This document shows positions 41,286 to 47,942 of a stretch of 47,942 nt of DNA, piece by piece. Positions within the stretch are counted from its first letter, which is position 1; the number at the start of each line of letters is the position of its first letter. The notes under the pieces were generated by a model that saw nothing but the letters and a program-made list of their open reading frames with translations, was not told the origin of the DNA and searched no databases. The DNA is from Aquificaceae bacterium. GTDB lineage: Bacteria; Aquificota; Aquificia; Aquificales; Aquificaceae. Where the stretch lies: contig JBKBNZ010000001.1 in the NCBI GenBank assembly GCA_046294875.1, positions 1-47,942 on the forward strand, in the 5' to 3' direction. Both the position numbers and the translations under genes were made by a program.

Positions 41286-42385
41286 TGAAGAGCATAATCG
41301 TAAGCCTTTTTGAAGACAAGCAAGAAGGAAGGGAGTCCCTTGAAGAGTTAAAAGAACTTCTAAAGGCTATAGATGGCCGATGTTTGGGCTATATTACTCA
41401 AAAAAGAAGTCAACCAGACCCCAAGTACTACGTAGGAGCGGGTAAGGTTGAAGAAATAAGGCAAGTGGCGGAAGGCACCGGCGCAGAAGCTGTTATTTTT
41501 GACGCCTTTCTTAGCCCCTCTCAGGTAGCAAACCTTGAAAGGGCGATAGGCAAAAGGATAATAGACCGTGCAGACCTTGTGCTTGAGATCTTCTCACGAA
41601 GGGTAAGGTCAAAGACAGCAAAGCTTCAGGTGGAGTTGGCAAAGCTTACCTACGAGCTTCCAAGGCTGTACGGAAGGGGTAAGGAGCTTTCAAGACTTGG
41701 TGGTGGTGTGGGTACAAGGGGTCCCGGTGAGCAAGAGGCAGAGATAAGAAGGAGGTGGATAAAAAAGAGAATACAACAGATAAAACAGGAGCTTGAAGAC
41801 ATAAAAAGGCAAAGGAGAGAGCAAAGGAAAAGAAGAGAGAGCGCAGTAGATATAAAGGTGGTCAAAATAGCCCTTGTAGGTTATACTAACGTAGGAAAGT
41901 CAAGCCTTTTGAGGCTTTTAACGGGTAGAGAAACCTTTATAGCAGACATGCCCTTTGCCACTTTGGATACAAAAACCTCCGCCAAGTTCCTATTTCCCGA
42001 CATAAAAATTCTCATAACAGATACGGTGGGCTTTATAAGAAAGCTACCGCCAGAGCTAATAGAATCCTTCAAGGCAACCTTGGAAGAGGTACAAGAGGCA
42101 GACCTGCTTTTGCATGTGATAGATATATCCGATAAAAACTGGCTTGAAAAGGTCAAGGTGGTAAAGGAGATCCTAAAAGACCTTTCCGCAGATGAGAAGC
42201 CTGTTATATACGTTTTTAACAAGGTGGACAAGATGGTAGAAAAGGAAGAAGACATTAAATACCTAACGGAGCCCGCCTTTATGGAGGGCAAGGCGGTGGT
42301 AATATCGGTGGTAAAGGGTTGGGGTATTGGGGAGCTTTTGGAAGCCATAAGGGAAAAGGTAGAAGAACTTCAAGGAGTTGGCTAA
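41285..42385 (+). CDS. hflX: GTPase HflX
   Basis: KLQVELA, GTRGPGE, GYTNVGKS, FATLD, DTVGFI, NKVD. Confidence 0.96.
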   Translation: MKSIIVSLFEDKQEGRESLEELKELLKAIDGRCLGYITQKRSQPDPKYYVGAGKVEEIRQVAEGTGAEAVIFDAFLSPSQVANLERAIGKRIIDRADLVLEIFSRRVRSKTAKLQVELAKLTYELPRLYGRGKELSRLGGGVGTRGPGEQEAEIRRRWIKKRIQQIKQELEDIKRQRREQRKRRESAVDIKVVKIALVGYTNVGKSSLLRLLTGRETFIADMPFATLDTKTSAKFLFPDIKILITDTVGFIRKLPPELIESFKATLEEVQEADLLLHVIDISDKNWLEKVKVVKEILKDLSADEKPVIYVFNKVDKMVEKEEDIKYLTEPAFMEGKAVVISVVKGWGIGELLEAIREKVEELQGVG

Positions 42386-43671
42386 TGAAAAAACATCTTG
42401 TAATACTGGGTGCCCAATGGGGCGATGAAGGAAAGGGGAAGATAGTAGACCTTTTGTCTGCCAACTTTGATGTGGTGGTAAGATACCAAGGTGGTAGCAA
42501 CGCAGGGCATACAGTGGTAGTAAAGGGAGAAAAGTTTATCCTTCACCTTTTGCCTACGGGCATTCTTCACCAGCACACCATAGGCGTAGTGGCTCAGGGT
42601 ATGGTGGTAGACCTTGAACTTTTGGTAAGGGAAATAGAAGACCTTGAAGGTAAAGGGTTAAGGGTTTGGGATAGGGTCTTTGTAAGCGATAGGGCTCACC
42701 TTGTAATGCCTTATCATAAGGTCCTTGACTCTCTTTTTGAAAGGAAGGGGAAGATAGGCACCACCTTGAGGGGTATAGGTCCCTCCTATATGTTTAAGTA
42801 CGGAAGAAAGGGCCTTAGGGTCTGCGACCTTGAGGACAAGGATAGAGCTTACCAGATCATGAAGGACAACATGGAGTTTGTACAAAGCCTTTGTGAGAAG
42901 GTGTATTGTGAAAATCATTCTCTTGACCTTGAGGAAACCTTTGAAAAGACTATGGAAAATTACAAAAAGATAAGGGATAGAGTGATAGATACCACACGGT
43001 GGCTTTTAAACTTTGAAGGAAGAGTGCTTTTTGAGGGGGCTCAAGGCACCATGCTGGACGTGGATATGGGCACCTATCCTTATGTAACCTCCTCCAACGC
43101 CTCCGCTTTGGGCTTGTCCTCTGGTACGGGACTGCCTCCTAAATACTTCTCGGAGGCAAGCTTTTGGGCTGTGTCAAAGGCCTATACTACAAGGGTGGGT
43201 GAAGGTCCCTTTCCCACGGAGTTAAAAGACGAATTGGGAGAAAGGCTAAGGGAAAAGGGTGGAGAGTACGGAGCAACCACCGGAAGGCCAAGAAGGTGTG
43301 GATGGCTTGACCTACCAGCTTTAAAGCATGCCGTGGATATAAACGGCTTGGACGCCCTTATCATCACCAAGCTTGACGTTTTAGATAGCTTTGAGGAGAT
43401 AAAGGTGTGTGTGGCTTATGAGTATGAGGAAAAGACCTTTGATTATTTCCCAGCAAGCTTAAGCCTTTTGGAGAGGTTAAAGCCCGTGTATAAAAGCTTT
43501 AAAGGATGGCTAAAGGACACAAAGGGTGCAAAAAGCCTATCCCAACTTCCAAAAGAAGCCCTTGACTATATAGATTTTATACAAGACTATTTAGGTGTGC
43601 CCATTGTAATGTTATCCACAGGTCCCCAAAGGGATGAGTTTTTCTGGTTGGAGGCCCAAAGCTTGGTTTAG
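42385..43671 (+). CDS. purA: adenylosuccinate synthetase
   Basis: QWGDEGKGK, GGSNAGHT, EGAQG, GTYPYVTSS, GATTGRPRRCGW. Start ATG 42385 overlaps the hflX stop. Confidence 0.98.
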   Translation: MKKHLVILGAQWGDEGKGKIVDLLSANFDVVVRYQGGSNAGHTVVVKGEKFILHLLPTGILHQHTIGVVAQGMVVDLELLVREIEDLEGKGLRVWDRVFVSDRAHLVMPYHKVLDSLFERKGKIGTTLRGIGPSYMFKYGRKGLRVCDLEDKDRAYQIMKDNMEFVQSLCEKVYCENHSLDLEETFEKTMENYKKIRDRVIDTTRWLLNFEGRVLFEGAQGTMLDVDMGTYPYVTSSNASALGLSSGTGLPPKYFSEASFWAVSKAYTTRVGEGPFPTELKDELGERLREKGGEYGATTGRPRRCGWLDLPALKHAVDINGLDALIITKLDVLDSFEEIKVCVAYEYEEKTFDYFPASLSLLERLKPVYKSFKGWLKDTKGAKSLSQLPKEALDYIDFIQDYLGVPIVMLSTGPQRDEFFWLEAQSLV

Positions 43672-43672
43672 G

Positions 43673-44419
43673 TCAAGGGCTGTTGAACCTTCCAAAAGCC
43701 AGTTTATAGAGAAAGACAAATATACCTGCAAGAGAGTGTAGGAAGCTTATAGCGTAACCTGTGGGCAGATCAAAAAGAAAGGAAAAGCTTACCGCCAAAA
43801 GGTTTATAAAAGAGCCAAAAACCCAAGCAAAAGCAAGCCCCCTTCCCAAAAGCAAAGAAACCAACGCGGGAGAAACCAAAAGGGAAAAAACCACCAAAAC
43901 GCCCACCAACTTTACAGAACTGGCAAGGGTAAAAGAAAAAAGCACGAAGAAGGCAAGGTCTTGAAAAAAGCCTTTAAGGTATTTTCTGAGATAAAGTAAA
44001 AGGCCTATAAGGCTGTAGGTGAGGGCAGTACTTATAACTTCTTGCTTTTCCACAAAGAGGATGTCGCTGGCGGTTATCTTTTTTAGCTCCTCCATGCCAA
44101 AAGCAGAAAAGGACAGGATAAGCACGGTTAAAGAAAAGCCAAGGGAGTACAAAAGACCTATAAAGGCTTCTGTATATTCCTTTATCCTCTGAGATAGGGC
44201 GATAAGAAGACTTGCCAAAAGGGCAAAGCTAAGGGAAAAAAGGTAAATATACTTCCCATGAAAGAAAAGAAGAGAGAGGGCTATACCCACTCCGGAAAAT
44301 TGAGCTACCGCAATGTCGGTAAAGATGATTCCCCTTTTTACTATCTCCCTTCCAAAGTAGGCATGGATGCCAACCAACACCACAGAAAGCAAAAGACTTT
44401 TAACAAAAAGGTCTATCAC
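43673..44419 (-). CDS. metal (Zn/Mn/Ni/Co) ABC-type permease, ZnuB/ABC-3 family
   Basis: Highly hydrophobic. HAYFG...RGIIFTDIAVAQ, EAFIGLLY, VKLVGVLVVFSLLVSPA. Confidence 0.88.
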   Translation of the reverse strand: MIDLFVKSLLLSVVLVGIHAYFGREIVKRGIIFTDIAVAQFSGVGIALSLLFFHGKYIYLFSLSFALLASLLIALSQRIKEYTEAFIGLLYSLGFSLTVLILSFSAFGMEELKKITASDILFVEKQEVISTALTYSLIGLLLYLRKYLKGFFQDLAFFVLFSFTLASSVKLVGVLVVFSLLVSPALVSLLLGRGLAFAWVFGSFINLLAVSFSFLFDLPTGYAISFLHSLAGIFVFLYKLAFGRFNSP

Positions 44420-45288
44420 TGGGAAAGCCTCCTTAGGATTTCGTCAAAAAGGTCAAAGAGGTTTTTTACACCTTCTACGCCCACATCGTGAGGAAGGACA
44501 ATAGCCCTTGCACCTATGACCTTGGCAAAATTGTTTGCAGGTTTTGGGTCTCTAAAAACCTCATAAACCACAAACTTGGCTCCTTTGGCTACTTTTGATA
44601 TTTCTTCTAAATGTCTGGCGGTGGGTGGTATACCAGGAAGGGGTTCCAAGGTGCCCACCACTTGTATGCCATAGCGTTTAAAAAGGTAATCGTAGGTTTT
44701 GTGATATTGTACCACCTTTAGGCCCCTTAGCTTAGAAAAACCCTCATCCCACTCCTTTAGCTTTTGATCCCACTTCTTTAAAAAGTCTTCAAGCCTTGAG
44801 GTGTAATATCCACAGTTTGTCTGGTCTAATTCGCACATCCTTTCCTTTATAGCCTTTGCCAATATGGGTATGTGGTGAGGGTTTAGATGATAATGAGGGT
44901 TGCCCTCTGGATGTACGTCGCCCATCTCCCTTGAAACTATAGCGGGCTTATCTATCAGATCTATAAAGTTTGAAAGGTCCAAAAAGCCTTTTCTACCGGG
45001 CTGTATTTTAGGGTTGTTGGATTGCTGTATCAAGGGTGGCAGAAAGCCTATTTCAAGACTTGCTCCATTTATAATAAGCAGGTCGGCGTTTCTGAGCCTT
45101 GCTATGTGGGAAGGCCTTGGCACCACAAAGTGAAAGTCCTCTGTGGGCTTTGCTATAACATAAAGGCTTATCTTTTCCCCTCCCACCTCCTTTGCCAACT
45201 CACCTATCCAAGGGTAGGTGGCAGCAACTCTAAGCTGGGCAAAGGAAATGGAAAGGCTAAGAAGTAGTAACATCATTAACTTTTTCAT
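44416..45288 (-). CDS. metal ABC transporter substrate-binding protein (ZnuA/TroA cluster A-I)
   Basis: Signal peptide, DFHFVVPRPS, GDVHPEGNPHY, YHKTYDY, EPLPGIPPTARH. Confidence 0.93.
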   Translation of the reverse strand: MKKLMMLLLLSLSISFAQLRVAATYPWIGELAKEVGGEKISLYVIAKPTEDFHFVVPRPSHIARLRNADLLIINGASLEIGFLPPLIQQSNNPKIQPGRKGFLDLSNFIDLIDKPAIVSREMGDVHPEGNPHYHLNPHHIPILAKAIKERMCELDQTNCGYYTSRLEDFLKKWDQKLKEWDEGFSKLRGLKVVQYHKTYDYLFKRYGIQVVGTLEPLPGIPPTARHLEEISKVAKGAKFVVYEVFRDPKPANNFAKVIGARAIVLPHDVGVEGVKNLFDLFDEILRRLSQ

Positions 45289-45454
45289 GTCTTTTCCTCC
45301 TTAAAAGTTTTTTTGTGCCTATGTAAAGGGCAAGTCCCACCACGCTGGCGGATGATCCAAGGCAGGCAGGACATTGGCCGCATCCACAAGAAAGCATATA
45401 AAGAAAGCCCCCCGAGGAGGGCAAAAGGGGCAAAAGTTTGTATATGCCCTTCAT
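45257..45454 (-). CDS. small Cys-rich membrane protein (CGCGQCPAC)
   Basis: Fills the gap between porin and binding-protein genes. Strong SD GAGGAGG, C-x-C-x2-C-x2-C cluster, hydrophobic segment, basic tail. Confidence 0.65.
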   Translation of the reverse strand: MKGIYKLLPLLPSSGGFLYMLSCGCGQCPACLGSSASVVGLALYIGTKKLLRRKRHEKVNDVTTS

Positions 45455-45464
45455 ACCTTCCTCC

Positions 45465-46850
45465 TCAGAAGGGATGGGCTCCGTGAGCTCCTATGGCAAA
45501 GGTAAATTGGAGTATCACCTCGTTTATGGTTTTTCTTTTTCCTTTTTCATAATAGGCTCTGTTTTGGCCTGCCTGCAACCTTATGCGGGAAAACTCGGTA
45601 GGGTTGTATTCCACCATGGCATAGTAGGCGGGTAGGTTCTTGGGAAGATTTTTATCGGTTATATCATTTTTGTTGATGAGGTTGTACTGGATTCCTGCCC
45701 TCCACCTTTGGTCAAGCCTTGCCACCAGCTGGGTATAAAAACCGCCCTGTTTTTTTCTGATATTTTCAGTTTCAAGGGTACTTCCATCTAACTCATACTT
45801 TGTACCCTTTTGGTCTCTGTATATATACTCTCCTTGGAAGGCTATGTACTTTGTGGCATCAAGGGAGTATCTGGCTGTTAGGTCAAAGCCGTAAAGCTTG
45901 GTCTTTCCTGCAAAGGCATGCTCTTCATGGTCTATCCTTGTCTTCCCTTGGGCATAAGAAAACCCCGTAAGCACGGAAAGGTTACCTATGTCAAAGGATG
46001 TTTTTACAAAGCCCACGTAAAGGTTGGGCTTGCGAGTTTCTGGCACTTTTACACCGCCTATCTCAAAGCCATCTATTCCAAAGCTCTGTTCGTTTTCTCC
46101 TTGCAACACTTCCGCACCAAGCAGAAGGTAAAAGGGCGTTGGGGCAAGCCAGTTTATCTGGATTCCCTTTTCTGTAAGGCCTTCGCCAAGGAAAACCTTA
46201 TAGATAAGGGGCTGGTTGGCAAAGTCCCAAGTATGGGGGTGTTGGGCGTTTAACCTTCCAAAGCCGCTTCTAAACTTTCCTACCTTTAGCTGGAAGCCAA
46301 AGGGCAGGCCTCGGGTAACCGCATAAGCCTCTTCTACCTCCGCACCTTCTTCTGTAAAGGGTATGGTGGCATAAAGGTCAAAGTACGGGTCTACGGGAGC
46401 ATAGAAGTACAGCTCTGCGTAGTTCAGGTTAAAGCCCCTTTTCTCGTTTAACTCACCATGTCCGTGTCCATGTCCGTTTTCGTGTTTGTGATAAAGGCCG
46501 GGAATTTTAAGGTGGCTAAACTCTTCATCCTTTATATTTCTTCCCACAAGGGATGTATCCACTATGAGGGATATGTCGGGTAAAAAGGCGGTTTGTCTAA
46601 AGGTACCAATCTGCATAGCCTTAAGCCTTTCATCAAACTTAGACCTTAGCTGAAGGCTTCTGTCCATGGGTTGGCTCTTTTGAGCTTCTTCCTTTACTTG
46701 CTCTTTTTGGGCTTTTTCTAAGCTTTGTATCTTCTTTTCAAGCTCTTGTATAAGCTTTCTTTGTTCCTCAAGCTGACGTTTTAGGTCTTCAAGGCTTTCT
46801 TGGGCAAAGGAAAGGCTAAATATTCCTAAAAGAAGGGCAATTTTCCTCAT
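45465..46850 (-). CDS. His-rich outer-membrane beta-barrel metal channel/receptor
   Basis: Signal peptide, N-terminal coiled coil, PDISL, HKHENGHGHGH loop, VEEAY, GRLNAQHPH, EFSRIRLQ, C-terminal GAHGAHPF. Confidence 0.85.
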   Translation of the reverse strand: MRKIALLLGIFSLSFAQESLEDLKRQLEEQRKLIQELEKKIQSLEKAQKEQVKEEAQKSQPMDRSLQLRSKFDERLKAMQIGTFRQTAFLPDISLIVDTSLVGRNIKDEEFSHLKIPGLYHKHENGHGHGHGELNEKRGFNLNYAELYFYAPVDPYFDLYATIPFTEEGAEVEEAYAVTRGLPFGFQLKVGKFRSGFGRLNAQHPHTWDFANQPLIYKVFLGEGLTEKGIQINWLAPTPFYLLLGAEVLQGENEQSFGIDGFEIGGVKVPETRKPNLYVGFVKTSFDIGNLSVLTGFSYAQGKTRIDHEEHAFAGKTKLYGFDLTARYSLDATKYIAFQGEYIYRDQKGTKYELDGSTLETENIRKKQGGFYTQLVARLDQRWRAGIQYNLINKNDITDKNLPKNLPAYYAMVEYNPTEFSRIRLQAGQNRAYYEKGKRKTINEVILQFTFAIGAHGAHPF

Positions 46851-46861
46851 CTTTATACCTC

Positions 46862-47200
46862 CTATAGTGTTATTACTTGTTCTACGCCAAGCTGTTTTGC
46901 TTTGCCGTATAGGTTAGGAAAGCATCCTATGGTGGCGCCTTCCACCAATTTGTCTGCTATGTTCCTCTCATAACAACATTGATCGCATCCCATCAAAAAG
47001 CCTATCTTTCCCTCTTTTAAAAGCTTTGAAAGCCTTTCTCCTATGGGATTTCCCTTTACAAGCACGTAGTTGTTGTCCAAGAGAAAAAACATACCAATCA
47101 CCTCAACAGGGTGAGCGTCGTTTTCAAGCTGGGGAAGTATCATCCTCCCCAGTATGTAACTGGCGGAGTTAGGACTGCTAAATATGTATAAAACCTTCAT
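46862..47200 (-). CDS. DsrE-fold protein (SaoD-like)
   Basis: MKVLYIF, YILGRMILPQLE, GMFF-x2-DN, CDQC, GCFP, VITL end. ATG 47200 with GGAGG SD 8 nt upstream. Confidence 0.8.
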   Translation of the reverse strand: MKVLYIFSSPNSASYILGRMILPQLENDAHPVEVIGMFFLLDNNYVLVKGNPIGERLSKLLKEGKIGFLMGCDQCCYERNIADKLVEGATIGCFPNLYGKAKQLGVEQVITL

Positions 47201-47203
47201 GGC

Positions 47204-47264
47204 AAACACCTCCTGTAGTTTTTTGAGAAAAAAGTCCGTAGCTTTTAGGCTACAGGAGGCGCTC
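47204..47264 (-). promoter_or_regulatory. SD-sequestering helix / translational attenuator
   Basis: Minus-strand GAGCGCCUCCUGUAG (47264-47250, RAPPV codons) pairs over 15 bp (3 G-U) with CUACAGGAGGUGUUU (47218-47204, contains the SD). Confidence 0.8.
47228..47257 (-). terminator. intrinsic terminator-like hairpin overlapping the leader stop codon
   Basis: Minus strand UCC(U)GUAGC-cuaaaa-GCUACGGA followed by C-UUUUUU. Confidence 0.55.
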
Positions 47265-47511
47265 GGTTGTGGGTGGTCTTTGGTAGGGGTTTATAAAAAG
47301 GCTGATGGGGTTTTTGGGTTTTTTCTACACAAAGGTAAAAAAAGGAGATTTTGAGAGAGATTTTGGCAGAGGGTTTGTCTATTTGGCTATGCTGTAATAT
47401 ACATAAGGAGCAGTCTATGTGTAGCTGGAGGTCTTCGTGATGGTGCTCTGCATGGGCAAAATCCACAAACAGGAGCAGAAGGCCTACCAGCAGGTGAAAA
47501 AGCCGCCTCAT
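47245..47511 (-). CDS. DUF2946/CruR-like exported leader peptide with His/CxxC sensor and C-terminal RAPP arrest motif
   Basis: Signal peptide ending AHA, EHHHEDLQLHIDCSLC, Pro/Lys-rich linker, terminal HNRAPPVA, first ORF of a metal-uptake operon. Confidence 0.85.
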   Translation of the reverse strand: MRRLFHLLVGLLLLFVDFAHAEHHHEDLQLHIDCSLCILQHSQIDKPSAKISLKISFFYLCVEKTQKPHQPFYKPLPKTTHNRAPPVA

Positions 47512-47528
47512 TATGAGATCTAATTTTA

Positions 47529-47732
47529 TTATTTTTTCGGATTTAAATCAAGCTTTCCTTTTAAAATCCCCATGCCACCAAAGAGAATACCAAAGCCCAA
47601 AAGCATAAGAGTTTGTGGCTCTTCAATCCTTATGATCCTATACCTGTCTTCTTGTGTAAAGGGTACTTCTTTGGATGTTGATATACCATAGAAGCTTAGC
47701 AGTGCTATTACTAACAAAAACAGCTTTCTATT
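47529..47732 (-). pseudogene. remnant of a signal peptide + coiled-coil + TM gene family (KEVPFTQEDR...LMLxGFGILFGGMGIL)
   Basis: Signal-like RKLFLLVIALL with no start codon (AAT AGA in place of ATG AGA). Very short spacer before the TM segment and an abrupt end. Confidence 0.5.
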
Positions 47733-47942
47733 GGGAGGTTCTTGAACCACCCTACAAGAACAATATGCGACCGGTGCTTTATGACCTAACCTGTGAGAAT
47801 AGCCCAACGATTGTCCCGTTAAAAAAAACATTGGACGAAATTTAACCATGTAGTTGTAAAAGCAATCCGTGAATTGTCCAGAAAATCATTAGGTGATCCT
47901 TGAAACCTCTACAAGGGGGTTTTTCACTCGGCGTATGAAGTT

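What the first reader, a model, noticed from the sequence alone, without database searches (positions are those of the whole stretch)
47198..47265. Dual RNA switch written into the RAPP codons: terminator plus SD-sequestering helix
Seen on the mRNA: CGA GCG CCU CCU GUA GCC UAA aagcuacggacuuuuuucucaaaaaa CUACAGGAGGUGUUU gcc AUG. The segment encoding R-A-P-P-V can pair in two ways. (i) With GCUACGGA, giving a hairpin followed by C-U6 (terminator-like, 47257-47228). (ii) Over 15 bp with CUACAGGAGGUGUUU, burying the GGAGG SD of the next gene. A ribosome stalled on RAPP would cover this shared 5' arm and block both structures. Established: SecM and MifM expose a downstream SD this way. Inference: stalling = ON (read-through and translation), metal-triggered release = OFF at both levels. 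I am not aware of this two-layer arrangement being described for a metal-uptake operon in this lineage.
Basis: partly seen in the sequence, partly recalled or inferred. Interest (0 to 1): 0.88.

Follow-up and report, generated by a model that had tools for sequence, protein, structure and literature searches.

The report
Stall-site codons hide next gene's start
In hot-spring bacteria, the last codons of a small histidine- and cysteine-bearing leader gene are complementary to the next gene's ribosome-binding site, a pairing kept and co-varying in relatives, so a ribosome stalled there would likely switch on a probable zinc-uptake operon; the proposed second switch, a transcription terminator, is not conserved and is likely incidental.

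Summary
Both pairings exist on paper, but only one holds up. The RAPP codons of an 88-aa His/CxxC leader form a 16-bp helix with the next gene's SD (-24 kcal/mol). The SD pairs with this arm in 49 of 57 Aquificales loci, the first Pro codon is CCU in 51 of 57, and the flanks co-vary across genera. The terminator-like hairpin is weak (-9.6 at 37 C, about -3 at 70 C). It reaches -8 in only 1-2 of 57 loci and is degraded in the two nearest species. Its geometry (stop codon in the loop, 32 nt from stall site to U-tract) could not tell a stalled from a released ribosome. Verdict: a CruR/CutF-like (DUF2946-like) arrest leader with a SecM/CutF-type translational switch before a porin + ZnuA/ZnuB-type operon. 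Arrest, metal and direction are inferred. The dual switch is not supported. This scan found similar RAPP/anti-SD leaders before, on other DNA.

The parts
47523..47551 (-). sigma70-like promoter (TTGATT-17-TAAAAT), -10 box ending 11 nt before the leader ATG; no SD before the leader, so probably a near-leaderless mRNA
   Evidence: a -10-like box ends 7-13 nt before the ATG in 34 of 54 leaders with a start assigned, SD-like word in 1 of 54, against 74 of 1229 crudely called genes of this genome
47245..47511 (-). 88-aa leader ORF: hydrophobic N-terminus, HxH-D...H-x2-CxxC, 45 residues, RAPP, two residues, stop
   Evidence: invariant H23 H25 D27 H31 C34 C37 R83 P85 P86 in 44 aligned leaders
47401..47445 (-). 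His/Cys cluster H23-C37, predicted metal site
   Evidence: invariant columns; metal binding inferred
47266..47421 (-). C-rich, G-poor coding stretch (49 C, 12 G in 156 nt), rut-like or simply kept free of pairing
47250..47265 (-). 5' arm of the anti-SD helix = codons R-A-P-P-V (RAPP 47265-47254; predicted stall with P85 in the P site, 47259-47257)
   Evidence: stall position by analogy with ApdA/ApdP and CruR
47228..47255 (-). terminator-like hairpin (47255-47236, stop codon in its loop) and U6 (47233-47228); present here, not conserved
47219..47224 (-). A6 tract just 5' of the SD arm; probable single-stranded landing site
   Evidence: A5 or longer in 53 of 57 spacers against 22 of 83 other spacers of this genome; function inferred
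47203..47218 (-). 3' arm of the anti-SD helix containing the SD GGAGG (47213-47209)
46862..47200 (-). SaoD/DsrE-related protein, first regulated gene here; absent from most relatives, where the porin follows the leader directly
   Evidence: NCBIfam NF040732 146 bits (cut-off 169) and NF040913 143 bits (cut-off 152)
45465..46850 (-). outer-membrane beta-barrel/porin-like protein
   Evidence: no relevant Pfam or NCBIfam family; Atlas look-alikes at 0.97-0.98 include clusters auto-named outer-membrane beta-barrel and zinc-regulated TonB-dependent receptor
45257..45454 (-). 65-aa Cys-containing ORF of unknown function
   Evidence: no family
44416..45288 (-). ZnuA-family metal-binding protein
   Evidence: PF01297 E 4e-40; best NCBIfam AztC, under cut-off; best PDB matches are Mn-binding PsaA-type proteins
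43673..44419 (-). ABC-3 (ZnuB-type) permease
   Evidence: PF00950 E 4.5e-13

Best explanation
The R-A-P-P-V codons of the 88-aa leader pair over 16 bp with the next gene's SD region in folding predictions, with co-variation across Aquificales, and likely act as a translational switch: a ribosome predicted to stall at RAPP would hold the helix open, and release of the stall, likely triggered by metal (probably zinc) binding to the nascent His/CxxC site, would let the helix close and shut off the porin/ZnuAB-type operon. Shown: the complementarity, its conservation and compensation, the fixed CxxC-RAPP spacing, and the importer-type genes downstream. Inferred: arrest on Aquificota ribosomes, the metal, and the direction. 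The terminator-like hairpin is most likely a local, lineage-restricted fold that is not the regulatory decision point.
For: SD paired with the RAPP arm at p>=0.99 in 49 of 57 loci, in two families and 13 genera. First Pro codon CCU in 51 of 57, against 36% of other Pro codons in the same leaders and 24% of first codons of PP pairs in this genome. Cognate arms pair at -22.1 kcal/mol on average against -16.7 with arms of other genera; one-locus-per-genus permutation p<=0.001 in all 200 draws. Within families the exact p has a median of 0.0012 (max 0.18) and 0.0014 (max 0.007). Four or five pair types occur at the three positions just 3' of the Pro codons (offsets +6 to +8); 92% of cells pair and 0 of 500 shuffles reach the covariation score on 14 loci. 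Masking a P-site footprint (up to +15) cuts the energy needed to open the RBS from 20.8 to 7.5 kcal/mol at 37 C and from 10.2 to 3.1 at 70 C; the drop is 5 or more in 44 of 57 loci at 37 C. CxxC-to-RAPP spacing is 45 in 40 of 56 and 44-47 in all 56; CruR has 45. RAPP arrest with Pro-Pro in the P and A sites is shown for CruR, ApdA and ApdP. Aquificota are classed as having runaway transcription, which suits translational control. The two Fur-family proteins of this 96%-complete genome match PerR and Fur best, not Zur.
Against: No expression, arrest or metal data. In 8 of 57 loci the SD pairing is weaker (0.11-0.82), and three sister loci with CCA-CCA codons have largely lost it. In 9 of 57 loci the modelled stall lowers RBS opening energy by less than 3 kcal/mol at 37 C. 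Mean per-base SD accessibility in the stalled model is only 0.41-0.60 here. RAPP codons are C-rich by necessity, so part of the core pairing comes free. The binding protein's best PDB matches are Mn proteins, so zinc is not certain. CutF shows that the same family can run with the opposite sign.
Confidence: 0.7

Rival explanations
1. Dual switch: release of the stall lets an intrinsic terminator form and also buries the SD.
For: The hairpin + U6 is in the sequence and is rare in spacer shuffles (2 of 5000) and in coding windows (1 of 1500 with U6). It is the lowest-energy fold of the transcript until the SD arm is made. A weaker version persists in a five-species subclade (U4 tracts, -3.6 to -4.7). 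On 14 loci that I picked for closeness or U-tracts, 54% of cells pair (4 of 500 shuffles as high; covariation 29 of 500). One other genus has a strong, differently built hairpin before U7 (-9.9, -4.5).
Against: -8 or better in 1-2 of 57 loci; 23 of 57 have no U-rich tail at all. About -3 kcal/mol at 65-70 C. The stop codon lies in the hairpin loop and the P85 codon is 32 nt from the termination point, less than the 34 nt of the collided E. coli expressome. So while RNA polymerase is on the U-tract a ribosome cannot have passed RAPP and left: a stalled and a non-stalling ribosome both cover the arm, and a late ribosome covers it in neither case. In E. coli a terminator 5 bp after a stop fell from about 90% to under 10% efficiency through translation alone. 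Under runaway transcription the polymerase would not wait for the ribosome. 0 of 120 convergent gene ends here carry a U6 site at -8 or better (crude gene calls).
Confidence: 0.08
2. There is a second, transcriptional layer, but it is Rho-dependent as in CruR (C-rich leader = rut site) or a constitutive leaky stop that sets the leader-to-operon mRNA ratio.
For: rho is present. The last 78 nt of the leader have 31 C and 7 G, more skewed than all 1266 called gene ends; C exceeds G there in 55 of 57 loci. Synonymous choice adds to the skew in 19 of 20 relatives (mean z 1.2) and here at p 0.06 and 0.008 for the two 26-codon blocks. CruR is controlled this way.
Against: Most of the skew follows from amino-acid content, and 22 of 1266 genes have an equally skewed 78-nt window somewhere. 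G-poverty would also be selected simply to keep the C-rich arm free. Ribosome shielding of a rut site needs coupling, which is doubtful in this phylum. Any untranslated downstream gene could also suffer ordinary polarity without a dedicated site.
Confidence: 0.15
3. Same helix, opposite sign (CutF type): metal binding prolongs the stall and turns the operon on.
For: CutF stalls in the presence of Cu and opens an SD-shielding stem-loop; this leader also has a hydrophobic export-like N-terminus.
Against: The downstream genes are importer-type, for which induction by metal makes little sense. The motif is RAPP with CruR's spacing, not CutF's PPP.
Confidence: 0.07
4. The leader monitors export or envelope redox state (SecM-like, or through a CxxC disulfide) rather than a metal.
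For: RAPP peptides were first found as monitors of Sec/YidC; the N-terminus is hydrophobic; the first gene here is a Cys-rich DsrE-like protein.
Against: Three invariant His plus an Asp beside the CxxC, metal-importer genes downstream in most loci, and no Sec/YidC gene downstream.
Confidence: 0.06

Closest known systems
CruR (Bp2923, DUF2946/PF11162) of Bordetella pertussis (PMC9426467; arrest shown in PMC12992588)
   Same: Exported-type uORF with CxxC, 45 residues, then C-terminal RAPP, heading an outer-membrane uptake operon; C>G stretch in the 3' coding part; stall = ON logic (inferred here).
   Different: CruR acts through Rho-dependent termination over a 162-nt spacer and senses Cu. Here the spacer is 44 nt, the conserved element is an anti-SD helix made of the Pro codons, three invariant His precede the CxxC, and the operon is ZnuA/ZnuB-type. 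This leader does not hit PF11162.
CutF of Rhodobacter capsulatus (PMC9973294; bioRxiv 10.1101/2025.02.05.636593)
   Same: Metal-motif uORF whose stalled ribosome opens a stem-loop shielding the next SD.
   Different: CutF has CxxxC and PPP, is EF-P-sensitive, is induced by Cu and controls a detoxifying oxidase; its stem-loop is described as intergenic. Here the 5' arm is the arrest codons themselves and the target is an importer.
SecM-secA, MifM-yidC2, VemP and uDF_RQH-secDF2 (PMC10987492, PMC7897499)
   Same: A stalled ribosome disrupts an SD-sequestering stem-loop; RAPP-like arrest motif.
   Different: They monitor protein localization and control Sec/YidC genes; no metal motif. For ApcA, ApdA and ApdP no SD-sequestering hairpin was predicted.
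Ribosome-mediated transcription attenuators (trp, pyrBI; recalled, not looked up)
   Same: A hairpin + U-tract near the end of a leader ORF.
   Different: No antiterminator, no conservation, and a stop codon inside the hairpin loop, which leaves no ribosome position that discriminates stalled from released.

Membership tests
DUF2946 / CruR | Match to Pfam PF11162 | tested here: not met
   This leader: no family. 7 of 44 aligned orthologs hit PF11162 weakly, best E 4e-4. Nearest Atlas cluster with a family is DUF2946 at 0.92.
DUF2946 / CruR | CxxC motif | tested here: met
   C34, C37 invariant in 44 of 44 aligned
DUF2946 / CruR | C-terminal RAPP motif | tested here: met
   R83-A-P85-P86, two residues before the stop; R, P, P invariant, second position A, S or G
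DUF2946 / CruR | CxxC-RAPP spacing of 45 +/- 1-2 residues | tested here: met
   45 here; 44-47 in 56 of 56; CruR value
DUF2946 / CruR | N-terminal export signal | tested here: inconclusive
   Hydrophobic stretch of about 20 residues seen; no signal-peptide predictor was run
DUF2946 / CruR | Heads a copper-homeostasis operon | tested here: not met
   Downstream genes are porin-like, ZnuA and ABC-3
DUF2946 / CruR | Rho-dependent termination after stall release | not testable with these tools
   rho present and C>G stretch are only compatible
CutF-like proteins (Ozturk 2023 rule set) | <150 aa, PP within the last 15 residues, same-strand gene within 1000 nt, Cys/His motif | tested here: met
   88 aa, PP at 85-86, 44-nt gap; rules read
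SecM/CutF-type translational switch | Stem that sequesters the downstream SD and overlaps the stalled ribosome's footprint | tested here: met
   (prediction and covariation, not probing)
RAPP arrest peptides | Demonstrated translation arrest | not testable with these tools
   needs toeprinting or in vitro translation
Regulated intrinsic terminator (attenuator) | Conserved stable hairpin followed by a U-tract | tested here: not met
   1-2 of 57 loci at -8 or better; about -3 kcal/mol at 65-70 C
Regulated intrinsic terminator (attenuator) | Ribosome position can discriminate the two states while RNA polymerase is at the U-tract | tested here: not met
   32 nt from P85 codon to termination point, stop codon in the loop, against 34 nt in the collided E. 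coli expressome; argument by geometry from another species
Regulated intrinsic terminator (attenuator) | RNA 3' end at the U-tract | not testable with these tools
   no RNA run was listed

The most novel reading that the evidence does not exclude
Aquificota use a zinc-sensing nascent peptide in place of a Zur repressor. A near-leaderless, constitutively made His3/Cys2 leader stalls at RAPP when zinc is short, and its two Pro codons double as the anti-SD, so one 6-nt word encodes both the arrest and the RNA switch. This would be a post-transcriptional zinc sensor of a kind not found in the papers I searched.
Probability: 0.35. Interest if true: 0.72.

Novelty: new variant of a known kind. Interest (0 to 1): 0.45.

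Why it matters
Metal-sensing arrest leaders have been tested only for copper (CruR, CutF), and the CruR paper notes that no riboswitch is known for Cu or Zn. This family gives a compact 88-aa, 45-nt-spacer candidate for a zinc (or Mn) version, with a covariation-supported RNA readout and exact compensatory mutations to test, in thermophiles with stable ribosomes. It also addresses a question left open in PMC12992588: how RAPP arrest is passed on to downstream genes. The negative result matters too: the 'two-layer' terminator is not a general feature.

Tried and rejected
RNA runs: none was listed for window:45400-47942, so expression and 3' ends were not examined. Rfam: no match at E<=1 in 43000-47942. 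Metagenome search with the leader gave only 3 loci, none from the closest subclade, so the hairpin could not be sampled more densely. One search placed the hairpin one column off; one search is the correct count. Other RAPP-like ORF ends in this genome: five printed by the scan, only this one a credible His/CxxC leader. Four of 46 fetched porin-upstream regions gave no RAPP-stop leader and were left out of the 57: two with a broken leader frame, one with RSPP and a distant stop, one with no leader; three of 18 SaoD loci also had none. Porin matches whose 5' end ran off a contig were not fetched. Two of the 57 loci come from one assembly. A U-tract/A-tract pair in many spacers (28 of 57) was considered as a conserved element, but the U-tract rate equals background and the A-tract alone explains it. 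A tandem-duplication origin of the hairpin's 3' arm (it resembles the start of the SD arm) was noticed by eye and not tested. Gene calls for the genome-wide controls were crude longest-ORF calls, so those rates are approximate. No structure prediction or complex prediction was run. Supplements were not read: the CutF-like lists of PMC9973294 and the RAPP datasets of PMC12992588 may already include these Aquificota leaders.

Full report
What is there. On the - strand an 88-codon ORF (47511-47245) ends in ...NRAPPVA*. After 44 nt come a SaoD/DsrE-related gene, a porin-like gene, a 65-aa ORF, a ZnuA-family binding protein and an ABC-3 permease. The closest named relatives of the porin gene are Aquificaceae, titled Hydrogenobacter, Thermocrinis and Pampinifervens. 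I therefore call the genome's order Aquificales; that these grow at 60-80 C is recalled.

Observation. Both pairings can be drawn. The anti-SD helix has 16 contiguous pairs (47265-47250 with 47218-47203), -24.4 kcal/mol at 37 C and -10.1 at 70 C. The terminator-like hairpin has 7 bp (47255-47249 with 47242-47236), -9.6 at 37 C and about -3 at 65-70 C, followed by AC-U6. The long helix is far beyond chance: 0 of 200 shuffles, best of 120 comparable junctions in the genome, 0 of 20000 random end/RBS pairs, and 7 of 20000 synonymous recodings. The hairpin is ambiguous: 30 of 200 dinucleotide shuffles fold as well, yet hairpin plus tract appears in only 2 of 5000 spacer shuffles and 1 of 1500 coding windows.

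Relatives. A SaoD search of 61 genomes (17 with a match) and a porin search of 148 genomes (66 with a match) led to 18 + 46 loci. 57 carry the leader with R(A/S/G)PP near a stop. In 44 aligned leaders H23, H25, D27, H31, C34, C37, R83, P85 and P86 are invariant. The CxxC-RAPP spacing is 45 in 40 of 56 and 44-47 in all, the value reported for CruR. Formal membership of DUF2946 is not met by this protein; 7 of 44 orthologs hit it weakly. SaoD is an optional first gene; usually the porin follows the leader directly.

The anti-SD helix is conserved and compensated. The SD pairs with the RAPP arm at p>=0.99 in 49 of 57 loci. The first Pro codon is CCU in 51 of 57, against 36% CCU at other Pro codons of the same leaders. 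The codons after RAPP vary freely, and the bases 5' of the SD change with them (for example G-C 20, U-A 7, C-G 4 at the first position after the Pro codons). Own arms pair better than arms of other genera (-22.1 against -16.7; p<=0.001 in 200 of 200 one-per-genus draws). This also holds within each family (median exact p about 0.001; worst draws 0.18 and 0.007). Against this: 8 loci pair more weakly, and three sister loci with CCA-CCA have nearly lost the helix. Masking a ribosome footprint at P85 lowers the RBS opening energy from 20.8 to 7.5 kcal/mol (37 C) and from 10.2 to 3.1 (70 C); the drop is 5 or more in 44 of 57 loci and under 3 in 9 (37 C). An A5+ tract precedes the SD arm in 53 of 57 spacers against 22 of 83 background spacers.

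The terminator is not conserved. One scan finds a U-rich tail in 34 of 57 spacers and a hairpin at -8 or better in 2; a stricter scan finds 1, this genome. The two nearest species by leader tree have U4 and -3.7/-4.2, and there the small hairpin folds as an inner stem inside the anti-SD helix rather than competing with it. U-tracts occur in 13 of 37 same-family spacers and 28 of 83 other spacers of this genome. On 14 hand-picked loci the hairpin register pairs in 54% of cells against 92% for the anti-SD helix; the 54% exceeds most shuffles (4 of 500), so a weak residual fold in one subclade is not excluded. Canonical terminators are also scarce at gene ends here: sites at -8 or better in 18 of 378 convergent ends against 16 of 400 coding windows, and 0 of 120 with U6 among long genes; the gene calls are crude.

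The terminator could not read the switch. The stop codon sits in the hairpin loop and the P85 codon is 32 nt from the termination point. In E. coli the collided expressome has 34 nt between P site and polymerase active site (passages of bioRxiv 2020.03.01.971028). While polymerase is on the U-tract the lead ribosome can at most have reached RAPP. Stalled or not, it covers the 5' arm; if it lags, the hairpin forms whatever the metal. In E. coli translation alone suppressed a terminator 5 bp after a stop (section of PMC4824070). Aquificota are classed, at phylum level and by prediction, as runaway transcribers (passage of PMC13323073). That classification allows terminators close to stop codons, but makes them blind to the ribosome. 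This is inference from other species.

A Rho layer is possible. rho is present. The leader's last 78 nt have 31 C and 7 G, the most skewed of 1266 called gene ends, and C>G holds in 55 of 57 loci. Amino-acid content explains most of it; synonymous choice adds a little in 19 of 20 relatives, and 22 of 1266 genes have an equally skewed window somewhere. It may be a rut site as in cruR, or may simply keep the C-rich arm free.

Which metal. For zinc: ZnuA and ABC-3 families, AztC as best NCBIfam match, an Atlas cluster auto-named zinc-regulated receptor, and CobW-type GTPase genes next to the operon in two loci of one genus among 29 neighbours scanned. Non-SAO SaoD homologs are reported beside AztC/AztD-type genes (passage of bioRxiv 2022.07.06.499078). 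The genome's two Fur-family proteins match PerR and Fur best, all under cut-off. Against: the best PDB matches of the binding protein are Mn proteins. Direction (stall = ON, metal = OFF) follows from importer logic and CruR and is untested.

Wider range. Of 48 porin loci outside Aquificota, 24 have a CxxC-(42-46)-RAPP-like leader upstream. There the first Pro codon is mostly CCG (16 of 24), and the SD more often pairs with the codons after RAPP or the stop region. A terminator-like site at -8 or better occurs in 2 of the 21 with a start assigned. Use of the Pro codons themselves as anti-SD thus looks like an Aquificota trait, shared by one Campylobacterales locus.

Literature seen. PMC9426467: abstract, passages, Discussion. 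PMC9973294: abstract, passages, three Results sections. bioRxiv 2025.02.05.636593: abstract, Discussion. PMC10987492, PMC10951233, PMC7897499: passages. PMC12992588: abstract, passages, one section; 'Aquific', 'zinc' and 'stem-loop' do not occur in its main text. Searches listed no paper on a zinc-linked RAPP leader or on this operon in Aquificota; supplements were not read. This scan's earlier notes describe similar RAPP/anti-SD leaders before zinc-type operons in other genomes; none matched this sequence and none listed paired RAPP with an intrinsic terminator.

Verdict. Observation confirmed; interpretation half right. This is a new variant of the CruR/CutF kind with a well-supported translational switch. 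The dual terminator layer is not supported. Interest 0.45.

Noticed in passing
window 47511-47551 (-) and orthologous leaders: The leader has no SD; a -10-like box ends 7-13 nt before its ATG in 34 of 54 leaders (74 of 1229 genes genome-wide), suggesting near-leaderless mRNAs. In several relatives the leader's ATG instead overlaps or closely follows the stop of a housekeeping gene (fabZ-like, NADH dehydrogenase subunit, hemN-like).
   Followed up: partly
window 43673-44419 and 42319-43671: The operon has no ABC ATPase gene: the permease ends 1 nt from a convergent gene that looks like purA (recognised by eye, not scanned), leaving no room for a terminator.
   Followed up: no
L019, L020, L048 (genus g11): Three sister loci keep RAPP and the His/CxxC motif but use CCA-CCA and have largely lost SD pairing; natural controls for the switch. 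One has a CobW-type GTPase gene just upstream of the leader.
   Followed up: partly
L015, L046 (genus g6): The saoD-porin operon is present without any RAPP leader; in L046 it follows a SecD-like gene.
   Followed up: no
L040, L051, L058: Leaders with a truncated or shifted frame, or RSPP with a stop far downstream; may be assembly errors or decay.
   Followed up: no
window 45407-45422 (-): A GC-rich hairpin followed by a U-rich tail lies inside the 65-aa ORF between the porin and ZnuA genes; could step expression down within the operon.
   Followed up: no
window 45257-45454 (-); L070:8998-9954 (-): A 65-aa Cys-containing ORF without family sits between porin and ZnuA in this genus; one relative has an extra 319-aa protein without Pfam family there.
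   Followed up: no
window 47529-47849 (-): The 106-aa ORF upstream of the leader ends in a PEP-CTERM-like tail (recognised by eye; no family hit).
   Followed up: no
G000 genome: Coding strands are 55% purine and 103 of 189 crudely called convergent gene pairs overlap; strong hairpin+U terminators are scarce.
   Followed up: partly
L140, L143-L145, L147, L149 (Rhodocyclales-titled records): CxxC-45-RAPP leaders before the same porin family share a conserved multi-stem spacer in which the stop-codon region pairs with the SD.
   Followed up: no
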